From an uncultured bacterium (GTDB lineage Bacteria > Fidelibacterota > Marinisomatia > Marinisomatales > UBA1611), in the NCBI GenBank assembly GCA_964586315.1, contig CAZPHE010000002.1:31706-95705 (forward strand): a DNA stretch of 64,000 nt. Reading direction: 5' to 3'. This document shows, one piece after another, positions 9,977 through 64,000 of the stretch; the stretch's first letter is position 1, and each line of letters begins with the position of its first letter. Under the pieces are notes generated by a model. That model did no database searches. It was not told the DNA's origin and was given only the letters and a program-made list of their open reading frames with translations. The position numbers and the translations under genes are program-made.

Positions 9977-11050
9977 ATGAATGAGAAAAGTACTGATATT
10001 AAATCAGTTGTAGTAAAAATTATAACTGATAAACCTGTTCGAAAAACACCTTATCAAGTTAAAGGTGTCTTTATGCGCCAATATCCTGATGAACCGATTA
10101 TTCCAATGTTGGATGGGTCATACCGTGATAAATTTTTATATCCTCGTGTCCAAGTTAAAATATTAAATGAGCAAATTTATATTATTGGAATCCACGAAGG
10201 TGTAGATACTATTTTGTCTGCAACTAAAAAATTTAAACAATTTGATTTTGGAAACATAACTTTTACAGTTCAAGATTATGATATAGAAAGATTAAACAAT
10301 CAATTTATCCCGTCTGATCGTCCCTTAAGATATCGTTTTATCACTCCTTGGGTTGCACTTAATCATATGACAGGTGGAAAGTATCGGCTTTTGAGCAATA
10401 AAGAAAAACCATCATATTTAAATAAACTTTTGGGTCAAAATCTAATTTTTTTAGCAAATGAAGTTGGGATAAACATTGAAAAAGAAATTTTTTCAAAAGT
10501 TAAAGTTAAAAGCCTGTTTCCAAAACCAATTGATGAAAATAAATGGGGCGCATTTAGGGGGGAATTCAAAACAAATTTTGTTTTACCTAATTATATTGGT
10601 GTGGGTAATGGCATCACTCGTGGTTTTGGTACAATTTATAGCATGTTTAACCCAGAATCTTTTTCTTTTGATGAAACACAATTAAAAAAAGATGTAAAAA
10701 GCCAAGCTGAAGAAACCATTAATGATAAAGAAATGGAAAAAATATCAGTCTCGGATGTGCCAAAACCAAAAAGGAAACGTCTTCAAACTAAATATAATAA
10801 AGGCAAAAAGAATAAAGGAAAAAGTTTTCAAGCAGATCAAAGTTATAAAAGGGGAAAAAATTACCACAAAAGAAAACGTTCTAAATCGAAAGAGAAAGGG
10901 CATTCTAATAATTACCGATTTCGAAAATCTGGGAATATTTTTTCAGAAGAATATGATATAGAAGAAGTTAATAATATTAATAAAGAAGGATCTAAAGACG
11001 ACCAAAGATTTAACACAGAACAACATCATAAAAAGCAACATAAGTTTTGA
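9977..11050 (+). CDS. Cas6-like (RAMP/ferredoxin-fold, DUF2276-type) protein with a ~130-aa Lys/Arg-rich C-terminal tail; no CRISPR context
   Basis: Glycine-rich loop 'GVGNGITRGFG' fits the Cas6 consensus G-h-G-x5-G-h-G near the end of a ~225-aa globular part. 'YPRVQVK' resembles the Cas6/DUF2276 'YP-x-IQ-x-K' strand. The tail is 'KPKRKRLQTKYNKGKKNKGK...KRKRSKSKEK'. Confidence 0.5.
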   Translation: MNEKSTDIKSVVVKIITDKPVRKTPYQVKGVFMRQYPDEPIIPMLDGSYRDKFLYPRVQVKILNEQIYIIGIHEGVDTILSATKKFKQFDFGNITFTVQDYDIERLNNQFIPSDRPLRYRFITPWVALNHMTGGKYRLLSNKEKPSYLNKLLGQNLIFLANEVGINIEKEIFSKVKVKSLFPKPIDENKWGAFRGEFKTNFVLPNYIGVGNGITRGFGTIYSMFNPESFSFDETQLKKDVKSQAEETINDKEMEKISVSDVPKPKRKRLQTKYNKGKKNKGKSFQADQSYKRGKNYHKRKRSKSKEKGHSNNYRFRKSGNIFSEEYDIEEVNNINKEGSKDDQRFNTEQHHKKQHKF

Positions 11051-46017: not shown

Positions 46018-46449
46018 ATGGCAAACTGGAGTCAACACCACGATTTGGTGTATGCTTTTGTGTGTGTATCATTTCTCGCAGATGGGGAAGTAGATGAATC
46101 TGAAAAAGAGGCTATGCGTGGCAATGTCAAGGTTATGTTGCCCGATGTATCTGACGAAGGATACAATGCAATTGAAGCCGAAGTAATTGATAAATTCATT
46201 GATCTTGGAGATGAAGATTCGAGGATGAATCAATATGGTCAGTCTTTGAATGCTCTGAAAGATATGTTTACTTCTGATGATGATCGTTACAAGGTTGTAA
46301 AAAACCTAGCTTACATTGCACGAGCTGATGATTTTATTCATGATAATGAAATGGCGATGATTGAACAGGCAGTGAGTTCCTTGGATATGGTAGGCAAAGT
46401 AAATCTTGTCAAAACAGATTCTACTCTTTTTGTTGATCCTACATTCTAA
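46018..46449 (+). CDS. stand-alone TerB-like domain protein (143 aa)
   Basis: SD 'tAAGGTGAtattATG'. 'SFLADGEVDESEKEAM' is the TerB/DjlA-N-type acidic motif. Visibly higher G+C than its surroundings. Confidence 0.65.
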   Translation: MANWSQHHDLVYAFVCVSFLADGEVDESEKEAMRGNVKVMLPDVSDEGYNAIEAEVIDKFIDLGDEDSRMNQYGQSLNALKDMFTSDDDRYKVVKNLAYIARADDFIHDNEMAMIEQAVSSLDMVGKVNLVKTDSTLFVDPTF

Positions 46450-52465: not shown

Positions 52466-52927
52466 TTAGATAGGAATTAAAGTTTGATTTCTATTATTAT
52501 AAAATAATATTAGATTGTAAATTAATTTAAAAATTGCCTTTACACCTTGGATGTATTGTAATTATTTAAAATAATTTACAATAAGACCATTTTAAATTTT
52601 TAAATCTTAGATGCTGATTATTCTTAATATACCCTCTATAAATATTAAAATTCAGATTTATTATATTTTAAAAATATTAAAATATAATTTCTCCCATTTA
52701 GTATTTAAATACTATTTACAGATATAATGATTATAAATAATAAATAAATAAATTTAGCTCATCTTTGTTTTTATTTTATATTTTAACGGAAATAACACAA
52801 TGTTGTAATTATAATCAATCCTTGTAAACAATAGTCTCGATACAATAAATTCAGGAAATTACTTTTCCCGGGGTAATACATGATGCGGAATCAATACATA
52901 TTAGTGGGTAAACCACTAAACCAATTA

Positions 52928-52948
52928 AATGGCTATATAATAGCCATT
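52928..52948. promoter_or_regulatory. 9-bp inverted repeat 30 nt upstream of the giant ORF start (candidate operator or 5'-UTR hairpin)
   Basis: 'AATGGCTAT ata ATAGCCATT': arms 52928-52936 and 52940-52948 are exact reverse complements. The function is inferred only. Confidence 0.3.
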
Positions 52949-52977
52949 CCTAAGTCCAATTATTTTAATTCAGAAAA

Positions 52978-55900
52978 ATGAGTAAAAAGCAAAAAGATAT
53001 TGTAATTATTGATGATTACAGAATTGTAAAAATTCTTAATAAAAATTTTACAAAAAAGATCCTAAAATCTTTTTCTGATCAGCCTAAAACAGCCACCGAA
53101 ATAGCGAATTCAATTTCATTCCCAAAAGAAAAAATTTATTATCACTTAAAAAATCTCCTAAGCAACAATATTCTTTTTATCAAAAAAACTGTAAAGGTAA
53201 AAGGTATAGAACAAAAATATTTTTTACCTACCGGAAAATCTTTTCAAATAAAAAGTAATAATAATGAACCTTATGTTTCAAATGAAATAAATAACCAAGT
53301 TCAATTGGAAAAAGAAAATCAGGAAAAAATAAATAATACAATTGAAAATAAAAATTTAAGTCATAACCAACATGTAAGAAAAATTATTGATAGGAGAAGG
53401 AATACAAATCGAAGAACAATTCAAAGGAGATTTTTAAAACCCCGTCGTGGAAATCAAAACCAAAAATTTTTACGTAAAAACAAAAGAAAAAATTCTGAAA
53501 GAAGAATCAATGATGAAAATAGAATTAATAATAAAAGAAGAAAAGTCTCTGAACGTCGAACAAATTATGATTTTGGTGTTGATATCCCAAAGAAAAAGTA
53601 TAAACAAAAACGGTATAAACCATATCCCCCCCAAAAAATAACACATAAAAATTTATTACTTCAACTGAATGGTGTAAAAAATGCCATGACTTTTGTACAA
53701 TCTAATAATATAGTAACCTTTTTGTATTGTACCTTAAAACAAAATGGTTTTGAAATAATACATATTAACAATTATCGGTTACCTATAAAAATAAAAGGTC
53801 ACCAAATAAAAACTCTGCCTGAATTAATTATCAACATCTATAATCAATTTATAAATCCTAGATCAAAGAAGAAAACCTTTCTTGCCATCCAATCTGATAA
53901 TTATCAATGTGAAATGACCTATTTTATAGGTAAAGGTAAGAGCGATAAACTTTTTCGAAAAAACATAATGGAAACGTTAAATGAAGCTTACAGGGTAAAA
54001 AAGGAAAATAGCTTGATGGATTTTATTAGGTATTATGATGGTCAAAAAAATTCTACGGTATGCTATTCTTCAAAAAAATCACAGATAGAAGAAGACTATA
54101 AAAATCTAGATGCTGCAGGGATTCCTTTAAGGTATATAACTTCAATCCCTAAAATATTGAATAACATATACACCTACTATAATTTAGAAAAAAATAATAA
54201 AACATCACTCCTTATATATATAGGTCACATTAAAACACATACAGTGTTCACTTTTGGCGATAGAATAGTTGAATCCCGTGAAATTGATAAAGGACTTAAT
54301 TTTTTTACCGAACCTTTGGCCGAATTATCACTAACTAGGGTCATTCATGATCAGGCTTTGCATGAAGCAACACATTTTTTATCATATTATGGTTTAAGCC
54401 CAGAATCTTCAAACACAAATATTCAAGATGGATTCCCTTTTAAAAAGGCAAAAGCGATTATAAATCATTTATCCCTTAGTTTTCTCTATGATATAAAAGA
54501 CTCCATTCAATATTTTGAAAGCATTCTAATAAAAGAAAGGTATACTGAAAAACCAATTTCAAAAATTTTTATCACGGGCCCAGGAAGTCACATAAAATAT
54601 CTTGACAAGACAATAGAAGAAATGTTTCGTGTTTCTGTAAAGAATTTTTCTCAAATCTGTGATGCACTACTTAAGGGTAATAAAAATCTAAATGGACCTG
54701 TATATAACAGATTTAAAGAAAAATTTTTATATAGAAAACAAGAAAGTTCTGAATCAAGTTTAAAAGAATTAAAACAAAAAATAAAGAACCATGAAGATGC
54801 CATTGAATCAACACAGAGTCCTGAAAGCGCGAAGTACAGTTTAGCACGTTTAGAAATTGAAAAAAATTCTAAAATCAAATCTATTGATTCGGCTAGTAAA
54901 AATTTAAGCTCTACAGCCCAAGAATTTAAAGATCTGAAAGAGAAATATGTTAAAACACAAGAGACCTTAGGATCTGATCTAAAATCAATTAATTCCCAAG
55001 TTGAAAATCTTAGTGAAGAATTGATTTATAAGTATAGTCAATATGATGAGATCAATAAAAAAATATCAGAATTAGAATTTGAAATAGACCAAGAAAAGAA
55101 TAAGAAAGATAAAATTCAACGCGAAGAAAAAAATCGCTATGGATCACAAATTAAAGCTGTGGCACAATCTCGAGCAAAATTAACAGATGATAAAGATTAT
55201 ATTGAACAAGAAATTGATGAACTTGAATCTAGTATAATAAAATATCAAGATTTATTTCACCAAAAAAATTATAAAATACAAAATGGACAGGATGAGATCG
55301 CTGTATTTGAATATTTAAAAAGCTCAATACAAAATGTTGCAAATATTTTTAAACGGTCTTTCCTAGTTCATTTAAAATCTTTAGAAGATCTTAATAAAGA
55401 TGATGTAAATACACTTCAAAAAGCTGGATATTTTATCACTAGTAATACAAAAAGGATTGATGAAATAAGAGAATCATTTAATGCTTTTATCTCTGGAGAG
55501 ACTAGTATTAATCCAGATCAAATGATAGATAATGAAAACGGAATCGCAATAAAGGAAAAATTGTTGGATATATTGAGCTTGGTTCAAAAGGCACCTGATG
55601 ACTTAATACATTTAAAAAATTTATCAACCACTATTGTAAAAATTAATGAAGATCAAAGTGATCTTAAAATGCAGAAGGAAAAACTCTCAAATCAAATAAT
55701 AAAATCAAAGAACAATATTAGAGAGAATCAGGGAACACGTTTTTCTATTAAAAGAGATATTGAAATCCATAAAGAAAGTTTAACAGAAAAAAGTAAGGAC
55801 AGGTCAGAAAGAATTGATGTACTGAATTATATTCGTGAGAGAATAGAGTTGAATGATGAATTTGATTATCATACAAAGCTTCTAAAAGAAATACAGCCTC

Positions 55901-58900
55901 AGAAAAATAAAAAGATAAAAAAATTAAAAAGTTTAAATAATCAAATTCAGGAAACCAAAGGCTCTATTAAAAGATTAGATCAATCATTTGAAGGATTAGA
56001 AATTGAAAATGCTGAAGTAAACCACTCTTGCCAAAAAAAGAAAAGAGACCTAAACGATCAAATCGAATTTTTCACAAAAGATACTGAACAAATAAAAAAC
56101 AAATTCAATGATAATGTAGATAAAGGAGATGCAATATCTATAGAAATCTCTAATGGGAAAACTTATATAGATCAATTAGAAAAACACTGTGTAAATAAAA
56201 AAGTAGAATTGGAAGATCTAAATCAAAAAAAGGTGCCAATTGTTAATAAATCCATAGAAGATAAGAAGCAAATAATTAAGGCATATGAAAAGAAATTAAA
56301 AATTTTAGATAGAGAACAAAATCAAAAAACATCTAAGGCTCAAAAAACTAAAAAGATCACAATTAAAGCCTTTTTTAAAAAAGAATTAGAAATGCTTAAA
56401 AAGGATTACAAAAACCTCGAAAAAAGTATTGATAAAATTAAGAAAGAGAAAGAAAAGGCATTACTTGAAAAGAATAATGCCACTGTATCCTTAGGTAATA
56501 TTAAAAAGAAAAAAATACCTCAGATAACATTATTGAAAAAACAAATAAAGAATTGGGAGATAGATATCAAGCGCGGACGAAGAATCCAAGAAAGATTAGA
56601 TCAACTTGAAATTAAAAAAGCACATTGGGATCAATTATTAGAAACTGAACAAAAAAATCATACAGAACAAATTGAATCTTTAGAAAAAAGTATAAATAGG
56701 AAGAGTTCTGATCAATATCTTGGTTTTCTGAAGGATGGTTTAAATCGTTTTAATAATGATGGTAATTTAGATGAGATTGCAAAAAAAATGTCACAAGAGA
56801 GTATCGATCTAGATCTTGAAACAATAAATAAGCTCAATATCAATTTTAAAAAATTCAAACAAACACATAATACATTTTTGAAAGGGTATAAAAAAAGAAG
56901 CAAAGAAATTTTACTAAAGCTAAAACCTTTTGGTGGAAAGAAAAAAATAATCCTAGCAAAAATTAAGAGCGCAAAAGATAAGCTTAGAAGCGCAGAATCT
57001 TTAATGCAGGAATATGTTAATAGACTGAATAAAAAGGTTAAAATTTTAAATGAAAAGAGAGAGATATTTTTAGAAAAAAAAGAAAATGCACGATCAAAGA
57101 TTGCAGATATCAAATTACAAATAAGACAAATTCCTGAAAAGGAGAACCGTGCAATTATTGATGTTGAAAAACAGTTAGTACAAATACCATTAGATATTGC
57201 TAAAGATAAAATGAATTTGGAAAATCAAAAGAAAGAAGATTTATTAGCAGTTGATATTTGGTTAGCGAATCAAGATAATATGTTAGACATTAATAAAGCA
57301 GAAGACAAGATTGTGTATTATTTTAATGAAATCGAAAAAAATAATAGAAAAATTGAAGAACTGAAAAACAAACAGAAAAAAATACTAGGTACAAAATTGT
57401 CCTTAGAGAAAGAGTTAGAAAGCATATCAAAAAAAATTACAGCTTGTCATTCAATGGGTAATGAAATTGAAGAACAATTCAAAGTAGATAGTTCTGAATT
57501 AAAAGAAAAGATTGCTAACAACAGAGGAGAATATGCTGCTTTTGAAAAACAACTTGACGAATTGAAGAATCAAAAAGAAAATTTAGAACTTGATATTGAA
57601 AAGATAGAAAAAGAATTCAAAACATCAGATGTTATTGTAAAAAAGACAAAAAAAGATATCTCTAACCATGAACAGATCTCCGATAGTATTAATATAAATA
57701 ATAATGAACACAAATCTAATCCGAGGGAATATCGGGAATATCTATCTGAAGTTGAAAAAGATATATTAAATGATATAGAACATTCAGAAAAAATGATCAC
57801 AGAAATAAATCGTGCTTTAGACACAATGGATAATGATATATCAATTCTCAATAGTACGATAAACTTGAATACAAATGATTTGGAATTGTATGAAAGAGAT
57901 TTTTCTAGAGTAGAGACATTGATCGAAAATAACAAACAACATCTAAAAAAAATATCCACAGAACACCAGAAATCATTAAATAGCATAGTAAGAATTAAAG
58001 ACTTATACCCACCAAGTAAGATTATGCTTAATGAACGTATATCTAATCTTTACACGCTAATAGAGTTAAAAGTAAAAGATAAGGATAATTTGGAACAGGA
58101 GCTTGACTCGTTAGATGAAAAACTGAAAAACAAAAGAATTGAAATAGCAATGATAGATCAGGAAATATCAAAAATTCATGAAGAAATGAAACATGCACTT
58201 GAATATTCATTTCATGAAAAAGATGAAGAATCTGTAGAGAATAAATGGAAGTGGGAAATTGGGAATTATAAAATGAAGACCTATCTTGATATCGCAACTC
58301 TTAAAACAGATTCTAAAGATTTATATTGCCAGATTACAGAAGCCGAAGAGACAATAGCAGAATTAAAACAGAAACAATCATCCGTTAATAATCTCCTTTC
58401 TGAATCTGAAAAAATAAATCTTAATAAAATAAAAAAGATGGAAGATACTTGTACACGATTAGAGCTTCAAATAACACGAGAAAAGAATGAATTGAATGAA
58501 ATTGAAAAAAAGGTAAATCAGTTAGAGAATTTGCCCATCAACTATGGTAATCGGATCGAAGCTCTTAAAGTAGAACTAAGGAATTTTAAAGATCAGGAAG
58601 CGGAGTATGAATTATTGCTGAATGACTTAGGTAGATCAATAGAATCTATAGAAAAGGAGTCAGATAAAATTATTAAAAGTCGTAACACGATTAAAGATAA
58701 TACAATAGATCTTGATTACATGGCGAATCTTGGTTTATTGATGGACCCATATTCAAAACTAAATCTCTTGCCGGATACACCTAAGAAAGACTTTAACTAT
58801 TTTAGATCAAATCAAATTTTTCAAAGAGCCATACTTATTTTAGTAACAGTTTTTTCTCTAGGAGCGTTTGCCCATCGGACTGAAATAAAGCCATTGAAGA

Positions 58901-59334
58901 CCCAACTGCCAATAAAGCAATCTGAGCTAACTCTTCTGAATATGCGTCAAAAAATGAAAGAAGTTGTCAAAAATAAAAATGTGCTTTCCAACAATTTCAG
59001 CAAGTTTATATACGATGATGAAAAAATATCTTCTGATATAGTCTCTTTATTGAAATATCTTAGTAAAAATATACCGAAGAATTATAAAGTAATTAATTTA
59101 ACTATTGACAAAAATAAGCCGGATTTTCTCGATGAAAGTACTGATTATGAATTTTCCAGTTTAAATATTACTCTAAATGGGTTTTTCGAAAACAGTTTAG
59201 AAAAATCATCCAGATTAGCCAACAAATTAAAAACATCCTTAGAAGAAAGTAATTTGTTTAAAAGTGTTGCTTTGAGTCATGGGAAAAAACAAAAAAAATT
59301 AAAAACGGAATACACTATCCAATTAGTTTATTAG
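52978..59334 (+). CDS. giant (2118 aa) fusion protein: wHTH, Arg-doublet repeat, PilM-like actin-fold domain, ~1350-aa coiled coil, TM helix and PilN-like periplasmic domain
   Basis: One uninterrupted 6357-nt ORF. The segment-by-segment motif reading is given in the sub-features. It heads a PilO-like, PilP-like and secretin gene series. Confidence 0.75.
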   Translation: MSKKQKDIVIIDDYRIVKILNKNFTKKILKSFSDQPKTATEIANSISFPKEKIYYHLKNLLSNNILFIKKTVKVKGIEQKYFLPTGKSFQIKSNNNEPYVSNEINNQVQLEKENQEKINNTIENKNLSHNQHVRKIIDRRRNTNRRTIQRRFLKPRRGNQNQKFLRKNKRKNSERRINDENRINNKRRKVSERRTNYDFGVDIPKKKYKQKRYKPYPPQKITHKNLLLQLNGVKNAMTFVQSNNIVTFLYCTLKQNGFEIIHINNYRLPIKIKGHQIKTLPELIINIYNQFINPRSKKKTFLAIQSDNYQCEMTYFIGKGKSDKLFRKNIMETLNEAYRVKKENSLMDFIRYYDGQKNSTVCYSSKKSQIEEDYKNLDAAGIPLRYITSIPKILNNIYTYYNLEKNNKTSLLIYIGHIKTHTVFTFGDRIVESREIDKGLNFFTEPLAELSLTRVIHDQALHEATHFLSYYGLSPESSNTNIQDGFPFKKAKAIINHLSLSFLYDIKDSIQYFESILIKERYTEKPISKIFITGPGSHIKYLDKTIEEMFRVSVKNFSQICDALLKGNKNLNGPVYNRFKEKFLYRKQESSESSLKELKQKIKNHEDAIESTQSPESAKYSLARLEIEKNSKIKSIDSASKNLSSTAQEFKDLKEKYVKTQETLGSDLKSINSQVENLSEELIYKYSQYDEINKKISELEFEIDQEKNKKDKIQREEKNRYGSQIKAVAQSRAKLTDDKDYIEQEIDELESSIIKYQDLFHQKNYKIQNGQDEIAVFEYLKSSIQNVANIFKRSFLVHLKSLEDLNKDDVNTLQKAGYFITSNTKRIDEIRESFNAFISGETSINPDQMIDNENGIAIKEKLLDILSLVQKAPDDLIHLKNLSTTIVKINEDQSDLKMQKEKLSNQIIKSKNNIRENQGTRFSIKRDIEIHKESLTEKSKDRSERIDVLNYIRERIELNDEFDYHTKLLKEIQPQKNKKIKKLKSLNNQIQETKGSIKRLDQSFEGLEIENAEVNHSCQKKKRDLNDQIEFFTKDTEQIKNKFNDNVDKGDAISIEISNGKTYIDQLEKHCVNKKVELEDLNQKKVPIVNKSIEDKKQIIKAYEKKLKILDREQNQKTSKAQKTKKITIKAFFKKELEMLKKDYKNLEKSIDKIKKEKEKALLEKNNATVSLGNIKKKKIPQITLLKKQIKNWEIDIKRGRRIQERLDQLEIKKAHWDQLLETEQKNHTEQIESLEKSINRKSSDQYLGFLKDGLNRFNNDGNLDEIAKKMSQESIDLDLETINKLNINFKKFKQTHNTFLKGYKKRSKEILLKLKPFGGKKKIILAKIKSAKDKLRSAESLMQEYVNRLNKKVKILNEKREIFLEKKENARSKIADIKLQIRQIPEKENRAIIDVEKQLVQIPLDIAKDKMNLENQKKEDLLAVDIWLANQDNMLDINKAEDKIVYYFNEIEKNNRKIEELKNKQKKILGTKLSLEKELESISKKITACHSMGNEIEEQFKVDSSELKEKIANNRGEYAAFEKQLDELKNQKENLELDIEKIEKEFKTSDVIVKKTKKDISNHEQISDSININNNEHKSNPREYREYLSEVEKDILNDIEHSEKMITEINRALDTMDNDISILNSTINLNTNDLELYERDFSRVETLIENNKQHLKKISTEHQKSLNSIVRIKDLYPPSKIMLNERISNLYTLIELKVKDKDNLEQELDSLDEKLKNKRIEIAMIDQEISKIHEEMKHALEYSFHEKDEESVENKWKWEIGNYKMKTYLDIATLKTDSKDLYCQITEAEETIAELKQKQSSVNNLLSESEKINLNKIKKMEDTCTRLELQITREKNELNEIEKKVNQLENLPINYGNRIEALKVELRNFKDQEAEYELLLNDLGRSIESIEKESDKIIKSRNTIKDNTIDLDYMANLGLLMDPYSKLNLLPDTPKKDFNYFRSNQIFQRAILILVTVFSLGAFAHRTEIKPLKTQLPIKQSELTLLNMRQKMKEVVKNKNVLSNNFSKFIYDDEKISSDIVSLLKYLSKNIPKNYKVINLTIDKNKPDFLDESTDYEFSSLNITLNGFFENSLEKSSRLANKLKTSLEESNLFKSVALSHGKKQKKLKTEYTIQLVY
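53005..53247 (+). other. winged-helix (ArsR/MarR-like) DNA-binding-type domain of the giant protein (aa ~10-90)
   Basis: 'IVKILNKNFTKKILKSFSDQPKTATEIANSISFPKEKIYYHLKNLLSNNILFIKKTVKVKGIEQKYFLPTG' has the helix-turn-helix plus beta-wing pattern of ArsR-type wHTH domains. Confidence 0.55.
53374..53559 (+). other. Arg-doublet repeat region of the giant protein (aa 133-194)
   Basis: 'RKIIDRRRNTNRRTIQRRFLKPRRGNQNQKFLRKNKRKNSERRINDENRINNKRRKVSERR': RR doublets spaced 3-5 residues apart. Confidence 0.7.
53641..54657 (+). other. PilM-like (actin/HSP70-fold) domain with degenerate nucleotide-binding motifs (aa ~222-560)
   Basis: Colinear with PilM blocks. 'AMTFVQSNNIVTFLYCTLKQNGFEIIHINNYRLP' corresponds to the 'GIDISSTSVK' region. 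'LLIYIGHIKTHTVFTFGDRIVESREIDKGLNFF' corresponds to 'VVDIGATMTTL...GG..LT'. 'KIFITGPGSHIKYLDKTIEEMF' corresponds to 'IVLAGGTA'. Confidence 0.6.
54745..58740 (+). other. ~1330-residue K/E/N/I/L-rich predicted coiled coil (aa ~590-1921)
   Basis: Heptad-like charged/hydrophobic periodicity and sparse Pro/Gly by eye. One candidate break, 'LKPFGGKKK', lies near aa 1317. Confidence 0.6.
58741..59334 (+). other. pilN: complete PilN-like module (aa 1922-2118): Met, 'LNLLP' peptide, TM helix and periplasmic domain
   Basis: 'MDPYSKLNLLPDTPKKDFNYFRSNQIFQRAILILVTVFSLGAFA' contains the PilN-type N-terminal [IL]NLLP motif (nt 58759-58773) and a TM helix (nt 58828-58872). The 197-aa length equals a typical free-standing PilN. 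Confidence 0.65.
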
Positions 59335-59340
59335 GAAATT

Positions 59341-59895
59341 ATGAATCAGAAAGAAAAATATTTTAGCTTTTTAGGCCTGACAATTGTATTAATAATTGGC
59401 TATATGTTTGATCGCAATCAGATGATAAAGAAGGTTAAAGAATACGAGATGGATATTTATAAGATTGATATAAAATTAAAAGAAGGTTCTGAGATCATGG
59501 ATGAAGTCAATACTATCAGACAAAACTTAATCAAAAATATAAACACATTAAGCTCTTATGCAATATCTGGAAGCCAACTATTGGATGAGATACAAAATGT
59601 GAAAACCTTGGCTAATAGATTGGATATTAATATTAAAGATTTAGAGATTGATCCAAGAAATACATTGCCTGAAACATACAAAAATATAAGTACAGAGAAT
59701 ATCAACTTAGAACGACAGACACTAAGTTTTGATTTAGTGGGCGATTTTCTTGATATAGGAAATTTTGTTGAGACTCTAGAAAATAGCGCTTCACCACTTA
59801 AACTAAAAAATTGTTCTATTTCCTTGGACAGCTTAGACCCTAGAGGGGTAATTGCAAAACTACAGTATGTTGCCTATGGAGGAGAAGAACTATGA
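59341..59895 (+). CDS. pilO: PilO-like type IV pilus alignment-complex protein
   Basis: 184 aa: an N-terminal TM helix 'FSFLGLTIVLIIGYMF', a coiled-coil segment, then a ferredoxin-like C-domain ('LSFDLVGDFLDIGNFVETLENSASPLKLKNCSISL'). Confidence 0.6.
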   Translation: MNQKEKYFSFLGLTIVLIIGYMFDRNQMIKKVKEYEMDIYKIDIKLKEGSEIMDEVNTIRQNLIKNINTLSSYAISGSQLLDEIQNVKTLANRLDINIKDLEIDPRNTLPETYKNISTENINLERQTLSFDLVGDFLDIGNFVETLENSASPLKLKNCSISLDSLDPRGVIAKLQYVAYGGEEL

Positions 59896-60305
59896 TAAAA
59901 GAAAAAATTATATTTGGATCATTCATTATAATTATTTCTTTAGTTGTTTTGGAATTTTTGCCAAAGATATTTCCTGCTTTAAATTTTTTTTTGCGCTCAG
60001 ATAAAATAAATATTGAATCAAACATTAAAAAATCAGATCAGAATAATACAGAGATTTCAAAACCGGTATCCCTCTTCATTTCTGAATGGGGGTCTGATAT
60101 TTTTCATGATCGTAGTAATGTTTATAATAATTGGTTCCAATTAACAGGCATTACTCAATTTGAAAATAATTATAAGGCAATTATAAATGGAGAGATTCTC
60201 ATGGAAATGGATCGAGTAAGAGGATTTACCGTAAAAAAAATTACTGGTAACAAGGTGGTATTAAAAAGAAATGAGTACATCGTAACACTTAAACTGGAAA
60301 AATAA
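59892..60305 (+). CDS. PilP-like small membrane-anchored protein
   Basis: 137 aa: an N-terminal hydrophobic anchor and a C-terminal beta-sandwich-like 'FQLTGITQFENNYKAIINGEILMEMDRVRGFTVKKITGNKVVLKRN'. Positioned between the PilO-like and secretin genes, with a 4-nt overlap upstream. Confidence 0.45.
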   Translation: MIKEKIIFGSFIIIISLVVLEFLPKIFPALNFFLRSDKINIESNIKKSDQNNTEISKPVSLFISEWGSDIFHDRSNVYNNWFQLTGITQFENNYKAIINGEILMEMDRVRGFTVKKITGNKVVLKRNEYIVTLKLEK

Positions 60306-61994
60306 ATGAAATACTTAATAAAAATAGTAAAAGTCTGCTGGCATATTTTGATCTGTTCTTCCTTGGTTGGTCAAACGCAGGGCTTTAAGTACAATCTGTT
60401 TCCTGCTTCCCCTAAGCTTAAAGATATTTATATTTCTGAAGAAAAAAAATCATATGTAATGACAATGGAATTTAATGGAACAAACTTTGATTATGTAACC
60501 AGTGAAAATTTTGCACCTCCTAGTATAACTTTATTGTTTAAAAATGTAGAATGGGATAGGGGAAATTTCACTCAAAAATGTGATCAAAATCCGCTTTACC
60601 AGTATTCTTTGAGTATTCCTAGAAATGCAAATCAGAAAGAGATCGATAAAAGACTGCGTTTAAAATTGGATTTTACGCGAATACCAGAATACAAAATAAA
60701 GCTTGAGCCTGGAAAAGGTAAAAAGAAGAAACATAAACTAAAAATTATATGGAATAAGAAGAATGAAAAAAAGAAGCCACAGAGATATGCATCTTCAAAT
60801 AAACGACTGCCACCATCTCGTGTAAGTTTAAATTTCCAAAATGCAAAATTGGTGAATGTGGTCAGAATGCTTGTATCTCAGGATAACCTGAATCTTATTA
60901 TGGGTGAAGATGTGGAAGGTCGGGTCACAGTGAGTCTATCAGATGTTTTATTAGAAACAGCTTTGGATGCCATCCTTCATGTCAACAATTACGAATGGTT
61001 TATCCAAGACAATATTATCATAATTCAACCTATGACAACAAAAAAAGTATTAAGTGGGGAATTATCGACTCGCATGTTTAGGTTGAATTATATAAATGGA
61101 GATATGGCAACAGAAGCTGTTAAAGAGGTGCTATCATCACGAGGGAAAATAAAGGCTATATCATCAACGGCATCAACCAATGTGGAGCCCGGAGAAAAAG
61201 ATATATTATTGGTTACAGATTTACCAACAAACTTTTCTCTGATAGATGGAGTTATTAAATCACTTGATGTGAAGAGTGATCAAATCAATATTGCTGTGAA
61301 ATTTGTTGAGACGGCATTGAAGCATGATGAGGTAATAGGCATCAACTGGGATCTAAGAGAACAGATGAGCATTATTAAAAGTGGAGATACCGATACCTCA
61401 AAAACCTTTGACTTGGGTTATTTGATGTTAGGTGACCAGACTATGAACTTTGCAACCTTAAGCAGACCGGTTGTTAGTGCAATACTTTCTCTTCTGGCTC
61501 AGGATGGAAGTACAAAACTTCTCCAAGAACCTCAAGTGACTACTACAAATAATTCTCCGGCAAATATTGTTGTTGGCACAACAATACCAGTACTGGTACC
61601 TCAGGGAGAGGGCAGTGTTTTTGGAACCAATCCGTATACATATGAAAACCAACATATAAATATATCACTTGATGTTTTACCAAGAGTGAATGAAGAAAAA
61701 ATTATAAGTATGAAGATTGATGCTGTGGTTCAAGATATTATTGGTTTTATTGGAAAAGATCAGCGTCCAATGATCTCGACTCGATCTACCAATACAACAG
61801 TAAGAGTGCATAATGGAGAGACCCTATTAATCGGTGGATTAATATTTGATACAGCAGACGAAATTAATTCAAAGGTTCCATTACTGGGGGATCTTCCGCT
61901 TATAAAAAGATTATTTAATTATAGTAGTAAAGATAAAGAGCAGCGAGAATTATTAATCTTTATAACACCCACTGTTATTTCTAGTGATGTATAG
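60306..61994 (+). CDS. pilQ: secretin (PilQ/GspD family) with an AMIN-like N-terminal region
   Basis: Secretin C-domain 'TTVRVHNGETLLIGGLIFDTADEINSKVPLLGDLPLIKRLFNYSSKDKEQRELLIFITPTVI'. N0/STN-like 'NFQNAKLVNVVRMLVSQDNLNLIMGEDVEGRVTVSL'. Confidence 0.85.
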   Translation: MKYLIKIVKVCWHILICSSLVGQTQGFKYNLFPASPKLKDIYISEEKKSYVMTMEFNGTNFDYVTSENFAPPSITLLFKNVEWDRGNFTQKCDQNPLYQYSLSIPRNANQKEIDKRLRLKLDFTRIPEYKIKLEPGKGKKKKHKLKIIWNKKNEKKKPQRYASSNKRLPPSRVSLNFQNAKLVNVVRMLVSQDNLNLIMGEDVEGRVTVSLSDVLLETALDAILHVNNYEWFIQDNIIIIQPMTTKKVLSGELSTRMFRLNYINGDMATEAVKEVLSSRGKIKAISSTASTNVEPGEKDILLVTDLPTNFSLIDGVIKSLDVKSDQINIAVKFVETALKHDEVIGINWDLREQMSIIKSGDTDTSKTFDLGYLMLGDQTMNFATLSRPVVSAILSLLAQDGSTKLLQEPQVTTTNNSPANIVVGTTIPVLVPQGEGSVFGTNPYTYENQHINISLDVLPRVNEEKIISMKIDAVVQDIIGFIGKDQRPMISTRSTNTTVRVHNGETLLIGGLIFDTADEINSKVPLLGDLPLIKRLFNYSSKDKEQRELLIFITPTVISSDV

Positions 61995-62005
61995 GAGGCA
62001 GTTTG

Positions 62006-63196
62006 ATGAATAAAAAACAAAATATCGTTTTTTACAAAATGATATCGATATTGCTTTATTGTAAAATTGAAAAACTAATAAGTATTTTGTTTCTAATATT
62101 TATTTTTTTAGAAACTGTTACATATGGGCAGAGCGATATGTTTATGTCAGGGAATAGCAGACCATATGCCGATGCCGGTAGGGATATCAATACACTCTCT
62201 AAAGGGTCTATATTTTTAGATGGTTCAAAATCTTTTGTTACTGATGGATCAAAAATAAAATATCATTGGACTTTCGCTCCAGGTCTTGTTCTTAATAGTG
62301 ATAATGATTTTTCATCAGAAATAGGCTTTGAATCATATGATGAAAAATACTTAGAGAGTGTTCAAACTTATAAAGAAGTATTAGATGTGAAACTTGCAGA
62401 AAATGTTCCTGGAACAAAATTAGAAGTTGTTTTAACAATTAAGGATCGTATTGGATTTGAAGCTGCAGACACATTAATTGTAGAATATTATGATCCTACC
62501 ATAGTAGCAACTCCAGATACGCTTCCTGATACATTAGCATCAGAAATAGACTCTCTAAATCTTGCATTCTCAGATTCTGATACAGTTATAATAAAAATAA
62601 AAGGTCTCGATCTTCTTATTCAAGGAATTTTGAATGATGAAGTAGACCAGATTGATGAAGAGATTATTAACAGCATTATTATGGATCAACTTAAAAAAAT
62701 AGGCTTCAATTCAAAAATTTATTTAAACAGAGACTTGGAACAGGATGGTCTTGATCAGGATTACAATTTAGATTGTCAAACCGATTCATGTGCATCAGGT
62801 AATGCACGATTGTTAAATGCGGGATATGTTTTATCATGGGGTTTTGCAGAATCAGATGATATGCTTTCAATGAGAGTGTTTGATAGTTCAAGTTTTAATG
62901 ATTGGATTGCCAGCGATATTATATCAAGCCCCTATAAAATTATTGATGATTCTGGAGTATACGGTTTGGAGAACAAACTCAGGATTTCTGTATCAAAACT
63001 AATGAGCTCAAAAACTTTTAAAAAAGAGATATCGACTGTAGATCGTTTAACAATTAAAAATGAACGCTGGATAGCCTTCGGGAAATACCCCATCATGTTG
63101 GGTGCAGTATATTTATTAATTGATAAAGTTTTTTTACAAAATCCAGAAGAGCCGGCCCCAAAAGAACCACCTGGGTTTCCACATGACGGATCTTAA
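62006..63196 (+). CDS. PKD-like-domain protein with a C-terminal TM anchor
   Basis: SD 'AGGAGG' lies 7 nt before the ATG at 62006. 'PYADAGRDINTLSKGSIFLDGSKSFVTDGSKIKYHWTF' has the PKD/REJ-like pattern 'P.AdAG.d......v.LdGs.S.d.dg.i..Y.W'. C-terminal helix 'YPIMLGAVYLLIDKVFL'. Confidence 0.5.
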   Translation: MNKKQNIVFYKMISILLYCKIEKLISILFLIFIFLETVTYGQSDMFMSGNSRPYADAGRDINTLSKGSIFLDGSKSFVTDGSKIKYHWTFAPGLVLNSDNDFSSEIGFESYDEKYLESVQTYKEVLDVKLAENVPGTKLEVVLTIKDRIGFEAADTLIVEYYDPTIVATPDTLPDTLASEIDSLNLAFSDSDTVIIKIKGLDLLIQGILNDEVDQIDEEIINSIIMDQLKKIGFNSKIYLNRDLEQDGLDQDYNLDCQTDSCASGNARLLNAGYVLSWGFAESDDMLSMRVFDSSSFNDWIASDIISSPYKIIDDSGVYGLENKLRISVSKLMSSKTFKKEISTVDRLTIKNERWIAFGKYPIMLGAVYLLIDKVFLQNPEEPAPKEPPGFPHDGS

Positions 63197-63243
63197 AAAA
63201 TTTACTACAACTTAAAATTATGTTCTCAAAATAGGAGATTACC

Positions 63244-64000
63244 ATGAAGAAATTCATAATTATCCTCATTCTACTATTCGCTAATGGGTTTAGCCAGAAT
63301 AGATCTAATAATAAAACTACAAAAGACAAGGATGAATCAATAATTGGTACATTGGTCCAAAAAACACTTCAAAATGTCCCAAGGCGCATCTCTTATCAAG
63401 GTCTGATCACGAAAGCTGATGGAAGTCCAACAGCAGATGGCAGCTATGAAATATTATTTAAACTATACGACACAGCAATCGGCGGTGAACCAGTCTGGTC
63501 AGAGAATTTGGAAGTAACAGTCAATAATGGCATTATTAGTACGATACTTGGTAATATTAATCCTTTTGGTGCAATTCCTGAAGAAGCGTATCTCGAGCTT
63601 ACGGTTGATGGTTCTACTCTATCGCCTCGACAATCCCTTACATCTGTGTTTTATTCTGTTTTATCAGATACAGCCGGTTATGCTAAGACAGCGGATTATG
63701 ATGATCTTATTGATTTGCCAGATTTAGATGTTTATGTCTTAAAAGATTCTTTAGGTAGTTATACTACGAGTGAAGACCTATTTGATACTCTTTCAAATTA
63801 TCAGCAACTTGATTCAAATCTAACAGACCTTGTTGAAGACGGCATTCTTTCTGCAACTAAAATCGAATATGGAATTTCTTCAGAAGGAATAGCAGGAGAA
63901 TCCTGGATTTCAGATGGCGATGGTTCAGGAGAATGGGGTATCCCAACAGCAATCGCGGCTGATGATATTTTTACTGGAGATAGTGATATCAATATTCAGA
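63244..64000 (+). CDS. secreted repeat/fibre-like protein, N-terminal part (ORF runs off the window end; absent from the supplied ORF track)
   Basis: My own frame-1 translation from the ATG at 63244 has no stop through 64000. It starts 'MKKFIIILILLFANGFSQ' (signal peptide), then 'RISYQGLITKADGSPTADGSYEILFKLYDTAIGGEPVWSENLEVTVNNGIISTILG', a motif I associate with tail-fibre-like surface proteins. SD-like 'taGGAGattaccATG'. Confidence 0.6.
   Translation, partial: MKKFIIILILLFANGFSQNRSNNKTTKDKDESIIGTLVQKTLQNVPRRISYQGLITKADGSPTADGSYEILFKLYDTAIGGEPVWSENLEVTVNNGIISTILGNINPFGAIPEEAYLELTVDGSTLSPRQSLTSVFYSVLSDTAGYAKTADYDDLIDLPDLDVYVLKDSLGSYTTSEDLFDTLSNYQQLDSNLTDLVEDGILSATKIEYGISSEGIAGESWISDGDGSGEWGIPTAIAADDIFTGDSDINIQ

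What the first reader, a model, noticed from the sequence alone, without database searches (positions are those of the whole stretch)
52978..59334. Single 2118-aa polypeptide joining wHTH, Arg repeat, PilM-like domain, ~1350-aa coiled coil and PilN-like module
Seen in sequence:
- One unbroken 6357-nt ORF covers the whole region.
- Its translation reads in this order: an ArsR-type winged helix (aa ~10-90), an RR-doublet repeat (aa 133-194), a domain colinear with PilM block by block (aa ~222-560), about 1330 residues of K/E/N/I/L-rich heptad-like sequence, an 'LNLLP' peptide, one TM helix, and a ~150-aa periplasmic domain.
- In the PilM-like domain the phosphate-binding positions are substituted (FVQ, YIGH and GPGS instead of DIS, DIGA and GGTA).
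- PilO-like, PilP-like and secretin genes follow directly.

Established knowledge:
- In type IV pilus machines PilM is a separate cytoplasmic actin-fold protein that clamps the N-terminal INLLP peptide of the bitopic PilN.
- T2SS GspL is the known PilM+PilN-type fusion, but it has no DNA-binding domain and no long coiled coil.

Inference:
- The PilM-like domain and its cognate peptide sit at opposite ends of the rod.
- The rod therefore probably folds back as an antiparallel hairpin (SMC/EzrA-like), with roughly 650 residues per arm. At 0.15 nm rise per residue this is on the order of 100 nm.
- This would place a long cytoplasmic stalk, plus a nucleic-acid-binding-type head, on an envelope-spanning secretin machine.
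- I do not know of a described T4P/T2SS alignment complex with this architecture.
Basis: partly seen in the sequence, partly recalled or inferred. Interest (0 to 1): 0.9.

Follow-up and report, generated by a model that had tools for sequence, protein, structure and literature searches.

The report
Giant stalked PilM–PilN pilus-machine protein
An uncultured but abundant ocean bacterium (Marinimicrobia/SAR406) makes one 2118-residue protein in which two normally separate parts of a pilus/secretion machine are fused, a DNA-binding-type domain sits at the front, and a roughly 1300-residue helical stalk is inserted inside one of the folds, an arrangement I found described nowhere in the literature searched.

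Summary
ORF 52978-59334 (+) is intact and conserved: 2088-2181 aa in 17 Marinimicrobia species representatives, 2607-2785 aa in two divergent ones, and 14 further complete metagenome copies.

- **N terminus:** an ArsR/PH1932-type winged helix, followed by a disordered [D/E]RR-repeat region.
- **aa 222-578:** a PilM-fold domain with degenerate nucleotide-binding motifs.
- **aa 1913-1932:** this is the most conserved 20-residue stretch of the protein. It aligns to PilM's own C-terminal helix followed by the PilN INLLP peptide. It is followed by one TM helix and a PilN-topology periplasmic domain.

The ~1320-residue helical rod is therefore inserted inside the PilM fold, giving an SMC-like split head. 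Rod-less relatives (650-1115 aa) join the same two points with about 15 residues.

In L022 the two halves of the rod lengthen together, 888/872 residues against 640/659 in the window. A conserved central motif stays at the midpoint. This supports an antiparallel hairpin of about 95 nm.

A PilO-like gene, a small GspB-like gene and a secretin follow. In sister lineages a response regulator, an MshEN-T2SSE ATPase and a T2SSF platform come next.

The function of the stalk and of the wHTH is inferred, not shown. I found no description of this architecture in the literature searched.

The parts
52843..52977 (+). Conserved ~135-nt leader upstream of the giant gene. It holds a TAAATT(T) box, an invariant inverted repeat/hairpin P1 (AATTACTTTTCCCGGGGTAAT, 52857-52877), the conserved ATGATGYGGARTCAA, and then two hairpins (about 52902-52918 and 52929-52947) whose sequences differ between species while pairing is kept.
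   Evidence: The motif occurs once per locus. In 26 of 28 metagenome matches a wHTH-type start codon follows 77-103 nt downstream; in the other two, one contig ends 163 nt after the motif and one has none detected. No Rfam family matches.
52978..59334 (+). Whole ORF, 2118 aa: wHTH, Arg-repeat, PilM head, helical hairpin rod, PilM terminal helix, PilN peptide, TM helix, periplasmic PilN-like domain.
   Evidence: Conserved at 2088-2181 aa in 17 species representatives and in 14 metagenome contigs.
52978..53253 (+). ArsR/PH1932-type winged helix-turn-helix (aa 1-92). The helix 3/4 region ISFPKEKIYYH is the second most conserved stretch of the protein.
   Evidence: Pfam HTH_5/HTH_20. PDB 1uly at 2.2e-8. 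AF2 secondary structure shows helices followed by a beta-wing, pLDDT ~80. Conservation ranking.
53254..53628 (+). Disordered basic linker with 6-9 [D/E]RR repeats (aa 93-217; net charge about +26).
   Evidence: AF2 pLDDT is below 50. The repeat is absent from the rod-less relatives P0091 and P0087.
53641..54711 (+). PilM-fold actin-like domain (aa 222-578) with degenerate phosphate-1, phosphate-2 and adenosine motifs (TFVQS, YIGH, GPGS).
   Evidence: Foldseek: PilM 3jc8_Ma 4.7e-15, 5eou, 2ych. Family profile against 1.8 billion proteins reaches canonical PilM P0176 at 1.7e-9. Bridging profile: PilM 6.8e-21. Motif alignment.
54745..58692 (+). Helical rod (aa 590-1905). The N arm runs about aa 614-1254 and the C arm about aa 1254-1913. 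It is segmented by conserved Pro/Gly at 615, 770, 840, 873, 974, 1087, 1181, 1254, 1317-1320, 1386, 1678 and 1857.
   Evidence: No internal sequence repeats.
56680..56877 (+). Conserved non-heptad central motif (aa ~1235-1300, ...QYLGFLKDGLNRF...): the proposed apex of the hairpin.
   Evidence: It stays at the midpoint in all members, including L022 whose rod is 35% longer.
58714..58773 (+). DYMANLGLLMDPYSKLNLLP (aa 1913-1932): the PilM C-terminal helix equivalent followed by the PilN N-terminal INLLP-type peptide. It is the most conserved 20-mer of the protein.
   Evidence: conservation. (aligned to FAVALGLAL of 2ych and to ACGLALR...MARINLLP of 5eou)..
58816..58875 (+). Single transmembrane helix (aa ~1947-1966), with basic residues on the N-terminal (cytoplasmic) side.
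   Evidence: Read from the sequence. In the AF2 model it is part of a ~90-residue helix.
58876..59331 (+). Periplasmic PilN-like module: a long helix followed by a beta-beta-alpha-beta-beta(-beta) domain.
   Evidence: AF2 pLDDT 75-92. Pfam PilN PF05137 gives weak hits that span the full model, in 4/19 members and in rod-less P0087 at 0.005. No significant Foldseek hit in the PDB.
59341..59895 (+). PilO-like bitopic protein (184 aa).
   Evidence: The profile hits M. xanthus PilO 3jc8_Oa at 7e-4 as top hit. Pfam PilO reaches 4e-5 in the best member. Conserved in all loci.
59892..60305 (+). 137-aa bitopic protein at the PilP position, with a GspB/CdsD_C-type C-terminal domain.
   Evidence: CdsD_C in 15/15 members and T2SSB in 13/15. 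No PilP family hit.
60306..61994 (+). Secretin (562 aa), PilQ/GspD class.
   Evidence: PF00263 at 6e-44. TIGR02515 PilQ at 1.6e-57, below its trusted cut-off.

Best explanation
The ORF encodes the inner-membrane alignment subunit of a type IV filament (T4P/T2SS-class) secretin machine of Marinimicrobia. PilM and PilN are one chain, as in GspL.

A lineage-specific helical rod of about 1320 residues is inserted inside the PilM fold, between its last strand and its C-terminal helix. The head is therefore split, as in SMC or Rad50. The N-terminal PilM body (aa 222-578) and the post-rod helix plus INLLP-type peptide (aa 1913-1932) reassemble at the membrane.

The rod loops out as an antiparallel, segmented coiled-coil hairpin of about 640-660 residues per arm. 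That is up to about 95 nm if it is straight. A conserved apex motif sits near aa 1254.

The TM helix and the PilN-like domain pair with the PilO-like protein in the periplasm. They connect through the small GspB-like protein to the secretin.

The PilM head has probably lost ATP binding. The N-terminal ArsR-type winged helix and the Arg-repeat tail hang from the head at the membrane-proximal base. They most likely bind nucleic acid.

**Shown:** domain identities, the insertion point, conservation, co-varying arm lengths and the operon.
**Inferred:** cis docking of the terminal helix, hairpin geometry, loss of ATP binding, nucleic-acid binding, and any role of the stalk (spacer, cage or scaffold under the machine).
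For: **Real and conserved.** Intact ORF in 17 species representatives at 2088-2181 aa, plus 2607 and 2785 aa, and in 14 complete metagenome copies.

**PilM.**
- The AF2 model's top Foldseek hits are all PilM, followed by FtsA and MreB.
- The family profile finds canonical PilM at 1.7e-9 among 1.8 billion proteins.
- The bridging profile scores PilM 3jc8 at 6.8e-21, 2ych at 9.4e-12 and 5eou at 4.5e-10.

**Insertion inside the fold.**
- In 'ldymaNlgLll' aligns with the terminal FAVALGLAL of 2ych.
- In the same call 'maNlgLllde..kskLNllP' aligns with 'MIACGLALRSfdssgMARINLLP' of the PilM:PilN(1-12) chimera 5eou.
- The same equivalence appears in the multiple alignment with canonical PilMs.
- Rod-less fusions P0091, P0087, P0098, P0094, P0100 and P0096 join these points with about 15 residues.
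- aa 1913-1932 is the most conserved 20-mer of the protein.

**Hairpin.**
- The N arm is 638-640 aa and the C arm 651-665 aa in every core member where all three anchor motifs were found (11 of the 17 species representatives, plus three representative-search proteins).
- L022 has 888 and 872 aa with the central motif still at the midpoint.
- Conserved breaks pair roughly about a centre near aa 1260.

**Machine context.**
- PilO-like gene and secretin.
- The gene order is conserved in all loci.
- A response regulator, an MshEN-T2SSE ATPase and a T2SSF platform follow the secretin in giant-rod loci L020 and L021.
- The rod-less relative L060 has the same genes plus two N_methyl pilins.

**wHTH.**

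**Degenerate nucleotide motifs.**
Against: - No structure prediction of the rod, or of the reassembled head, could be run. Cis docking of the terminal helix is inferred from homology.
- The mirror correlation of the heptad signal peaks at centre ~1266 (r = 0.42). This is not clearly better than a parallel-shift control (r = 0.35).
- L006 has a 31-residue deletion in the N arm with no matching one in the C arm.
- The arm co-variation rests essentially on one independent lineage, L022. The centre of L021 could not be anchored.
- The PilN-like periplasmic domain has only weak Pfam support (E 0.005-0.09). It has no significant PDB fold match.
- In the window's own lineage no ATPase, platform or pilin genes follow the secretin.
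- Nothing tests DNA binding.
Confidence: 0.72

Rival explanations
1. The rod is an extended spacer, or a parallel or antiparallel intermolecular coiled coil, not an intramolecular hairpin. The PilM-like head and wHTH would then sit up to about 200 nm from the TM segment. Alternatively, rods lie along the membrane and link neighbouring machines, with the terminal helix and peptide docking in trans.
For: - The heptad signal is stronger in the C half than in the N half, and registers change often.
- The mirror-symmetry test is inconclusive.
- L006 has an uncompensated 31-aa deletion in one arm.
- A separate family joins the same wHTH type to a 1900-aa coiled coil with no split head.
Against: - The post-rod segment is homologous to PilM's own terminal helix and is the most conserved part of the protein.
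- Rod-less relatives need only about 15 residues between the two points.
- The arms are equal and co-vary in L022.
- From general knowledge, a 200-nm rod seems unlikely to fit in these cells unless it is bent. The cell size of this organism was not checked.
Confidence: 0.18
2. The wHTH is a membrane-tethered autoregulator. It binds the conserved inverted repeat ATTACTT-N6-AGGTAAT just downstream of a promoter-like TAAATTT box. Operon expression is thereby coupled to the assembly state of the machine, and the stalk has no DNA-handling role. This concerns function and is compatible with the structural model above.
For: - The wHTH is of the ArsR/PH1932 repressor class.
- Its helix 3/4 region (ISFPKEKIYYH) is nearly invariant.
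- An invariant 7-6-7 inverted repeat lies 77-103 nt upstream of the start codon in every locus. The metagenome scan found it nowhere else.
Against: - The repeat tolerates G-T wobble positions, and two further hairpins with changing sequence follow it. This fits an RNA leader better than an operator.
- The unrelated wHTH-plus-coiled-coil family carries the same wHTH type. Whether its upstream regions carry this repeat was not examined, so this point is open.
- No binding data exist.
Confidence: 0.25
3. The long ORF is an assembly or annotation artefact: a chimeric join, a frameshifted pseudogene, or read-through of separate pilM, coiled-coil and pilN genes.
For: Some homologous contigs show splits. 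L002 has a frameshift at a poly-A run. L001 is an inverted-duplication nanopore chimera. L024, L034 and L035 have early stops.
Against: More than 30 independent assemblies from different projects keep one frame of 2088-2181 aa with 32-58% identity along the whole rod. These are SAGs, MAGs, and TARA and JGI contigs up to 382 kb. The chance probability of the open frame is about 1e-90.
Confidence: 0.01

Closest known systems
PilM-PilN of type IVa pilus machines (T. thermophilus 2YCH, P. aeruginosa 5EOU, M. xanthus 3JC8)
   Same: - Actin-like PilM fold.
- C-terminal helix of the (G)LAL(R) type.
- INLLP-type peptide about 15 residues before a single TM helix.
- Bitopic PilN topology.
- Gene order M-N-O-P-Q, with a PilO-like gene and a secretin.
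   Different: - Here the two proteins are one chain.
- The nucleotide-binding motifs are degenerate.
- About 1320 helical residues interrupt the PilM fold.
- A wHTH and an Arg-repeat are added at the N terminus.
- The protein at the PilP position hits GspB/CdsD_C-type domains instead.
GspL/PulL of type II secretion systems
   Same: - It is the known natural fusion of PilM-like and PilN-like modules (PMC10191384).
- Its cytoplasmic domain lacks nucleotide binding.
- A GspM/PilO-like partner follows.
- GspL (4pht_X) appears among the fold hits at 7e-7.
   Different: - There is no Pfam T2SSL hit to the window protein.
- PilM structures score far better than GspL.
- GspL has no DNA-binding domain and no coiled-coil insertion.
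- The operon order here is pilMNOPQ-like.
Rod-less PilM-PilN fusions found here (P0091 and P0087 with wHTH; P0098, P0094, P0100 and P0096 with an ATNRLLDLLRSQ N terminus), 650-1115 aa, unnamed metagenome proteins
   Same: - The same PilM-like subfamily (profile E 1e-38 to 1e-20).
- The same junction, Y..N(L/V)(G/A)LL.D....LN(L/I)(L/I)P, then TM and a PilN-like domain.
- P0091 and P0087 carry the same wHTH type.
- The P0091 operon has secretin, response regulator, MshEN-T2SSE ATPase, T2SSF and pilins.
   Different: - No rod.
- No [D/E]RR repeat.
- Several reach the Pfam PilM_2 gathering score, which the window protein does not.
SMC / Rad50 / MukB topology
   Same: A globular head is assembled from N- and C-terminal pieces of one chain. 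The pieces are separated by a very long antiparallel coiled coil with conserved discontinuities and a conserved apex. The arms have matched length.
   Different: - The head is an actin-fold PilM domain, not an ABC ATPase.
- The weak NCBIfam SMC hits (E 4e-10 at 38 bits, cut-off 567) are coiled-coil composition only.
- No hinge or zinc-hook motif is present.
- The protein is membrane-anchored.

Membership tests
PilM (type IV pilus assembly, actin-like; Pfam PF11104) | Actin/FtsA-like two-lobed fold closest to PilM. | tested here: met
   For the AF2 model (pLDDT 70-90 in the domain), the top 4 Foldseek PDB hits are PilM: 3jc8_Ma at 4.7e-15 (TMt 0.65) and three 5eo* chains (5eoy_B, 5eox_B, 5eou_B). 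2ych_A ranks 17th (3.6e-12, TMt 0.63). FtsA and MreB come lower.
PilM (type IV pilus assembly, actin-like; Pfam PF11104) | Sequence-profile relationship to bona fide PilM. | tested here: met
   - The window sequence alone has no Pfam PilM_2 hit.
- The family profile hits PilM 3jc8_Ma at 0.0039 in the PDB.
- It hits canonical PilM P0176 at 1.7e-9 in 1.8 billion proteins. P0176 itself scores Pfam PilM_2 at 7e-52.
- The bridging profile reaches 6.8e-21.
PilM (type IV pilus assembly, actin-like; Pfam PF11104) | ATP-binding phosphate-1 (DxG), phosphate-2 (DxG) and adenosine (GGxx) motifs. | tested here: not met
   The aligned positions read TFVQS, YIGH (YIDR in most relatives) and GPGS. This feature is also variable in canonical PilM and is lost in GspL, so it argues for an inactive PilM-like domain rather than against homology.
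PilM (type IV pilus assembly, actin-like; Pfam PF11104) | Binds the N-terminal INLLP peptide of PilN. | not testable with these tools
   The peptide is present and is the most conserved segment.
PilN (Pfam PF05137) | INLLP-type cytoplasmic peptide about 15-20 residues before a single TM helix. | tested here: met
   LNLLP lies at aa 1928-1932 and the TM helix at aa ~1947-1966. It aligns with MARINLLP of the 5eou PilM:PilN chimera.
PilN (Pfam PF05137) | Periplasmic coiled-coil helix followed by a ferredoxin-like alpha/beta domain, with profile similarity to PilN. | tested here: inconclusive
   - The AF2 topology is a long helix followed by b-b-a-b-b-b at pLDDT 75-92.
- PF05137 is the only recurrent family, but weakly: 4/19 members, best 0.026, and 0.005 in rod-less P0087. 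The match spans profile positions 2-75 of 78.
- Foldseek against the PDB gave no significant hit.
ArsR/SmtB-like winged helix | wHTH fold and profile match. | tested here: met
   HTH_5 scores 23.9 bits against a cut-off of 22 on the segment. PDB PH1932 (1uly) scores 2.2e-8 over 86 residues. The AF2 model shows four helices followed by beta strands forming a wing. DNA binding itself was not tested.
GspL (T2SS; Pfam PF05134) | Profile match to T2SSL, and a gsp operon context. | tested here: not met
   There is no T2SSL hit at E <= 1. The operon order is pilMNOPQ-like. The secretin scores higher on the PilQ model than on the GspD model, though below both cut-offs.
SMC-family proteins | ABC-type ATPase head with Walker A/B and signature motifs; hinge domain. 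| tested here: not met
   Only a 38-bit coiled-coil-region match to TIGR02168, whose cut-off is 567. There is no SMC_N or hinge Pfam hit. The resemblance is topological only.

The most novel reading that the evidence does not exclude
Each subunit of the cytoplasmic PilM ring of a Marinimicrobia type IV filament machine carries an SMC-like coiled-coil hairpin of about 95 nm. If the ring has the usual ~12 subunits (an assumption taken from other type IVa pilus machines, not checked here), about a dozen such arms form a deep cytoplasmic cage or antenna. The wHTH and Arg-repeat tails at its base would capture or tether DNA: incoming transforming DNA or the chromosome. This would be a previously unseen way of coupling an envelope-spanning pilus or uptake machine to nucleic acid inside the cell.
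Probability: 0.2. Interest if true: 0.92.

Novelty: new variant of a known kind. Interest (0 to 1): 0.8.

Why it matters
PilM, PilN and GspL are among the best-studied parts of type IV filament machines. In every described system they form a compact ring directly under the membrane.

- **A new structural solution.** A conserved stalk of about 1300 residues is inserted inside the PilM fold, and its arm length is held to within ±2 residues across species that share only 32-58% identity over the rod. This would be a new structural solution, an actin-fold 'split head' with SMC-like topology. It implies a length-dependent function, such as a ruler, cage or reach, that no current model of these machines contains.
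- **A link to nucleic acid.** The attached DNA-binding-type domain raises the possibility of a direct physical link between a pilus or DNA-uptake machine and nucleic acid or gene regulation.
- **A target in uncultured cells.** The family is confined to Marinimicrobia (SAR406), which from general knowledge is a globally abundant, uncultured ocean phylum. It therefore also flags a cell-biological feature large enough to be looked for by cryo-ET in environmental cells.
- **An evolutionary series.** The rod-less relatives give a ready-made series for testing how such insertions arise.

Tried and rejected
- **Direct hits on the window protein.** Pfam and NCBIfam on the whole protein and on segments gave no PilM, PilN or GspL hit above threshold. 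Only the wHTH and a weak PilN hit appeared. A single-sequence PDB search of the PilM region found nothing.
- **C-terminal module.** A profile of the module against the PDB found nothing. With flanking rod included it found only generic coiled coils.
- **hhalign comparisons.** The C-terminal module against the PilO-like family, and the family profiles against single E. coli HofN and HofM sequences, were all insignificant.
- **Internal repeats in the rod.** None were found by BLAST.
- **Mirror-symmetry test of the heptad profile.** The peak falls at the expected centre but is not better than the control.
- **Homology between this rod and the 1917-aa wHTH-plus-coiled-coil family (L025-L030).** None was found beyond the wHTH, and that family is not in a pilus context.
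- **Rfam on the leader.** No match. RNAalifold on the MAFFT alignment recovered only the invariant first hairpin.
- **Assembly artefact.** Rejected on the evidence of more than 30 independent intact copies.
- **Literature.** Searches for PilM-PilN fusions, or for Marinimicrobia pili, with this architecture found nothing relevant.

Full report

Window 52978-59334 (+) is one ATG-to-stop ORF of 2118 codons. The region is 73% A+T, so a stop is expected about every 11 codons. The other five frames contain 97-300 stops, and the chance probability of the open frame is about 1e-90.

The surrounding 64 kb is ordinary chromosome. It carries dnaE, rho, prfA, carAB, mtaB and an ABC-F gene.

A scan of one genome per species returned 21 loci whose N-terminal 600 residues match. 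Every locus that carries a phylum name is Marinimicrobia/Neomarinimicrobiota; the rest are unnamed 'uncultured bacterium' MAGs.
- In 17 loci the ORF is 2088-2181 aa.
- In two divergent loci it is 2607 and 2785 aa.
- Two run off the contig, and one long-read MAG has a frameshift.

Identity to the window is 32-58% along the rod, similar to the globular parts. A metagenome scan with the upstream leader motif gave 28 further contigs. Fourteen of them have complete ORFs of 2091-2122 aa. The 2118-aa protein itself occurs on contigs up to 382 kb in JGI, ENA, NCBI and Logan assemblies.

The splits seen in a few contigs are assembly or sequencing errors. They are a poly-A frameshift in L002, a nanopore hairpin chimera in L001, and low-coverage contigs. 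An artefact is excluded.

**2. The N-terminal 600 residues**

- **Winged helix.** On the isolated segment Pfam HTH_5 passes its gathering score, 23.9 against 22 bits. A profile of the first 100 residues matches the Pyrococcus regulator PH1932 (PDB 1uly) at 2.2e-8 over 86 residues. An AF2 model built with 22 sequences gives a winged helix (aa 1-92, pLDDT ~80). It gives a disordered stretch (aa 93-217, pLDDT <50) and a two-lobed alpha/beta domain (aa 222-560, pLDDT 70-90).
- **Arg-repeat region.** The disordered stretch carries 6-9 [D/E]RR units at 5-8-residue spacing in every homologue. Its net charge is about +26 in the window protein.
- **PilM-like domain.** The four best Foldseek matches of the model in the PDB are PilM: 3jc8_Ma at 4.7e-15, then 5eoy_B, 5eox_B and 5eou_B. 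T. thermophilus PilM 2ych_A ranks 17th. FtsA comes next, then MreB, and GspL at 7e-7.
- **Sequence support for PilM.** The family profile's only meaningful PDB hit is PilM. An exhaustive HMMER search of 1.84 billion representatives gave 385 hits. They include canonical 355-aa PilMs at about 1e-9, and those proteins score 1e-52 on Pfam PilM_2.
- **Nucleotide-binding motifs.** Aligned with these canonical PilMs, the phosphate-1, phosphate-2 and adenosine motifs read TFVQS, YIGH and GPGS. The canonical forms are DIGS, (D/N)IG and GG(T/G)x. ATP binding is probably lost, as in GspL; this is an inference.

**3. Rod-less relatives and the insertion point**

The same search uncovered proteins of 650-1115 aa with a variable N-terminal extension. 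A PilM-like domain follows, and then, within about 15 residues, Y..N(V/L)(A/G)LL.D....LN(L/I)(L/I)P. A TM helix and a ~150-aa domain complete them.
- P0091 and P0087 begin with the same wHTH type.
- P0098, P0096, P0100 and P0094 pass the Pfam PilM_2 gathering score.
- P0087 gives PilN at 0.005.
- BLAST shows P0091 collinear with window aa 23-~560 and aa 1914-2042. The ~1340 residues in between are simply absent.

In a multiple alignment, the segment Y..N.(G/A)LL.D of the fusions falls on the C-terminal (F/Y)A.A.GLALR helix of canonical PilM and HofM. In the giant protein this segment lies after the rod.

I tested this with a profile built from rod-deleted giant sequences plus rod-less fusions. 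It hits:
- PilM 3jc8_Ma at 6.8e-21.
- 2ych_A at 9.4e-12. The alignment runs through 'ldymaNlgLll' against FAVALGLAL.
- The engineered PilM:PilN(1-12) chimera 5eou_A. Here 'maNlgLllde..kskLNllP' is aligned with 'MIACGLALRSfdssgMARINLLP'.

So aa 1913-1932 corresponds to the last helix of the PilM fold followed by the PilN N-terminal peptide. It is the most conserved 20-mer of the whole protein. The rod is inserted inside the PilM fold.

PulL/GspL is the described natural PilM+PilN fusion (PMC10191384). This family is a second, PilM-proximal fusion lineage. The giant form is a derivative of it.

**4. The rod**

Its length is strikingly constant, at 1306-1337 aa in 17 species. It has no internal sequence repeats.

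It is K/E/I/L/N-rich with heptad periodicity. A crude alignment-averaged heptad test finds significant windows at about 40% of positions, against 5% in the PilM domain. Registers shift often. Conserved Pro/Gly sites lie at 615, 770, 840, 873, 974, 1087, 1181, 1254, 1317-1320, 1386, 1678 and 1857. It is a segmented helical rod rather than one continuous coiled coil.

Three anchor motifs allow the arms to be measured. They are SPESAKY at the start, the central YL.F...GL.R motif, and DYMANLG at the end.

| Sequences | N arm (aa) | C arm (aa) |
|---|---|---|
| Core members with all three anchors found (11 of the 17 species representatives, plus three representative-search proteins) | 638-640 | 651-665 |
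| L022 (rod 35% longer, central motif still recognisable) | 888 | 872 |

The arms therefore lengthen together and the motif stays at the midpoint.

Because both rod ends are anchored in one fold (section 3), this supports an antiparallel hairpin. At 0.1485 nm per residue (a standard alpha-helical rise, from general knowledge) the arm is about 95 nm. In L022 it would be about 130 nm.

Caveats:
- The mirror correlation of the heptad profile peaks at centre 1266. At r = 0.42 it is not clearly above a parallel-shift control at 0.35.
- L006 lacks 31 residues in one arm only.
- The centre of L021 could not be anchored.
- No structure prediction of the rod could be run.

**5. The C-terminal module and neighbours**

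- **PilN-like module.** The AF2 model of aa 1905-2118 (41 sequences, mean pLDDT 76) shows a disordered peptide and a ~90-residue helix covering the TM segment and a periplasmic stalk. A b-b-a-b-b-b domain follows. This fits PilN/PilO topology. Foldseek against the PDB gave no significant match and other libraries were unavailable. Pfam PilN is the only family that recurs among members: 4/19, best 0.026, covering the full model. PilN identity therefore rests on the aligned INLLP peptide, topology, weak profile hits and position.
- **184-aa gene.** It is PilO-like. Its top PDB hit is 3jc8_Oa at 7e-4, and Pfam PilO reaches 4e-5 in the best member.
- **137-aa gene.** It hits CdsD_C in 15/15 members and T2SSB in 13/15, not PilP.
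- **562-aa gene.** It is a secretin.

This five-gene order is identical in all 16 loci with enough sequence.

In the giant-rod loci L020 and L021 the secretin is followed by a response regulator and an MshEN-T2SSE ATPase (1e-126 in L020). In L020 a T2SSF platform gene comes next; the L021 locus ends within the ATPase gene. The rod-less relative P0091 has the same set plus two N_methyl pilins. In the window's own lineage a PKD-like 397-aa protein follows instead. The ATPase, platform and pilin genes are not in the window.

**6. How it probably works**

- **Shown:** domain identities, the insertion point, conservation, arm co-variation and the operon.
- **Inferred:** the PilM body and the post-rod helix and peptide reassemble into one head at the inner face of the membrane. 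The rod loops out as a hairpin into the cytoplasm. The PilN-like part pairs with the PilO-like protein and links to the secretin. The head is an inactive scaffold.

Several observations point to a function that depends on arm length: a spacer, cage or reach. They are the ±2-residue constancy of the N arm, rod conservation as high as that of the globular domains, and a conserved apex.

The wHTH and the basic repeat at the base suggest nucleic-acid binding. Two candidate roles could not be separated.
- One is tethering or handling DNA at the machine.
- The other is autoregulation through the conserved upstream element.

**7. The upstream element**

All loci share a ~135-nt element that ends at the start codon. 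It holds:
- a TAAATT(T) box,
- an invariant 7-6-7 inverted repeat (window 52857-52877),
- the block ATGATGYGGAGTCAA,
- two hairpins whose sequences change between species while pairing is kept.

P1 keeps pairing through G-U-type changes in L021. It matches no Rfam family. The metagenome scan found it only in front of this gene. It may be a structured 5' leader, an operator for the wHTH, or both.

**8. Novelty**

Full-text searches found no description of this architecture. Database names are 'hypothetical protein' or, for fragments, 'PilM family ATPase'.

The machine class is known and the fusion principle is known from GspL. New here are the split-head coiled-coil insertion in an actin-fold protein, the attached wHTH and Arg-repeat, and their strict conservation within an abundant uncultured phylum. 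I rate it a new variant of a known kind, with interest 0.8.

Noticed in passing
window 52843-52977 (and upstream of the giant gene in L002, L004-L024, L032-L059): A conserved ~135-nt leader lies directly upstream of the giant gene. It has an invariant inverted repeat (AATTACTTTTYCCGRGGTAAT) and the block ATGATGYGGAGTCAA. Two hairpins follow whose sequences differ between species while pairing is kept. It matches no Rfam family, and the metagenome scan found it only in front of this gene. It may be a new cis-regulatory RNA or an operator for the wHTH.
   Followed up: partly
L025:8097-13850, L026, L027:9968-15721, L028-L030 (unclassified marine MAGs): A second family of giant proteins (1917 aa) starts with the same wHTH subtype (ISFPKEKIYYHIKKL), which is 43-44% identical. 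It continues directly into a ~1800-aa coiled-coil-like region not detectably homologous to this rod. It has no PilM or PilN parts and no TM helix. It lies in a non-pilus context, next to RNase H and T9SS-sorted proteins.
   Followed up: partly
window 9977-11050 (+): A 357-aa ORF has Cas6b_N and Cas6b_C domains (4e-24). It sits between rho and an aminotransferase gene and appears to be an orphan Cas6b-like gene. I did not look for a CRISPR array.
   Followed up: no
proteins P0098, P0094, P0100, P0096 (representative search): A branch of rod-less PilM-PilN fusions carries a different conserved N-terminal peptide (K..ATNRLLD(I/L)LR(S/A)Q). It is followed by a long low-complexity acidic or Lys-rich linker of 70-550 residues. 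This peptide could be a docking site for another component, but its function is unknown.
   Followed up: no
L001 (ENA ERZ28548068 contig_36810_pilon): This nanopore/pilon contig is an inverted-duplication chimera of the same locus. The genes upstream of the giant ORF reappear reversed downstream, and there are many frameshifts. It should not be used as evidence of gene structure.
   Followed up: yes
window 62003-63196 (+) and 63243-64000 (+): In the window's lineage the secretin is followed by a 397-aa membrane or secreted protein with a weak PKD hit. A further secreted protein follows, conserved in L004-L016. The L019-L022 lineages instead have a response regulator, ATPase and platform set. 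The operon was therefore remodelled between lineages.
   Followed up: partly
window 43483-45732 (-) and 46018-46449 (+): A 749-aa protein with no Pfam hit lies next to a 143-aa TerB-domain protein. Its homologue in L001 has a faint TerB hit. The pair is syntenic in L001 and L002.
   Followed up: no
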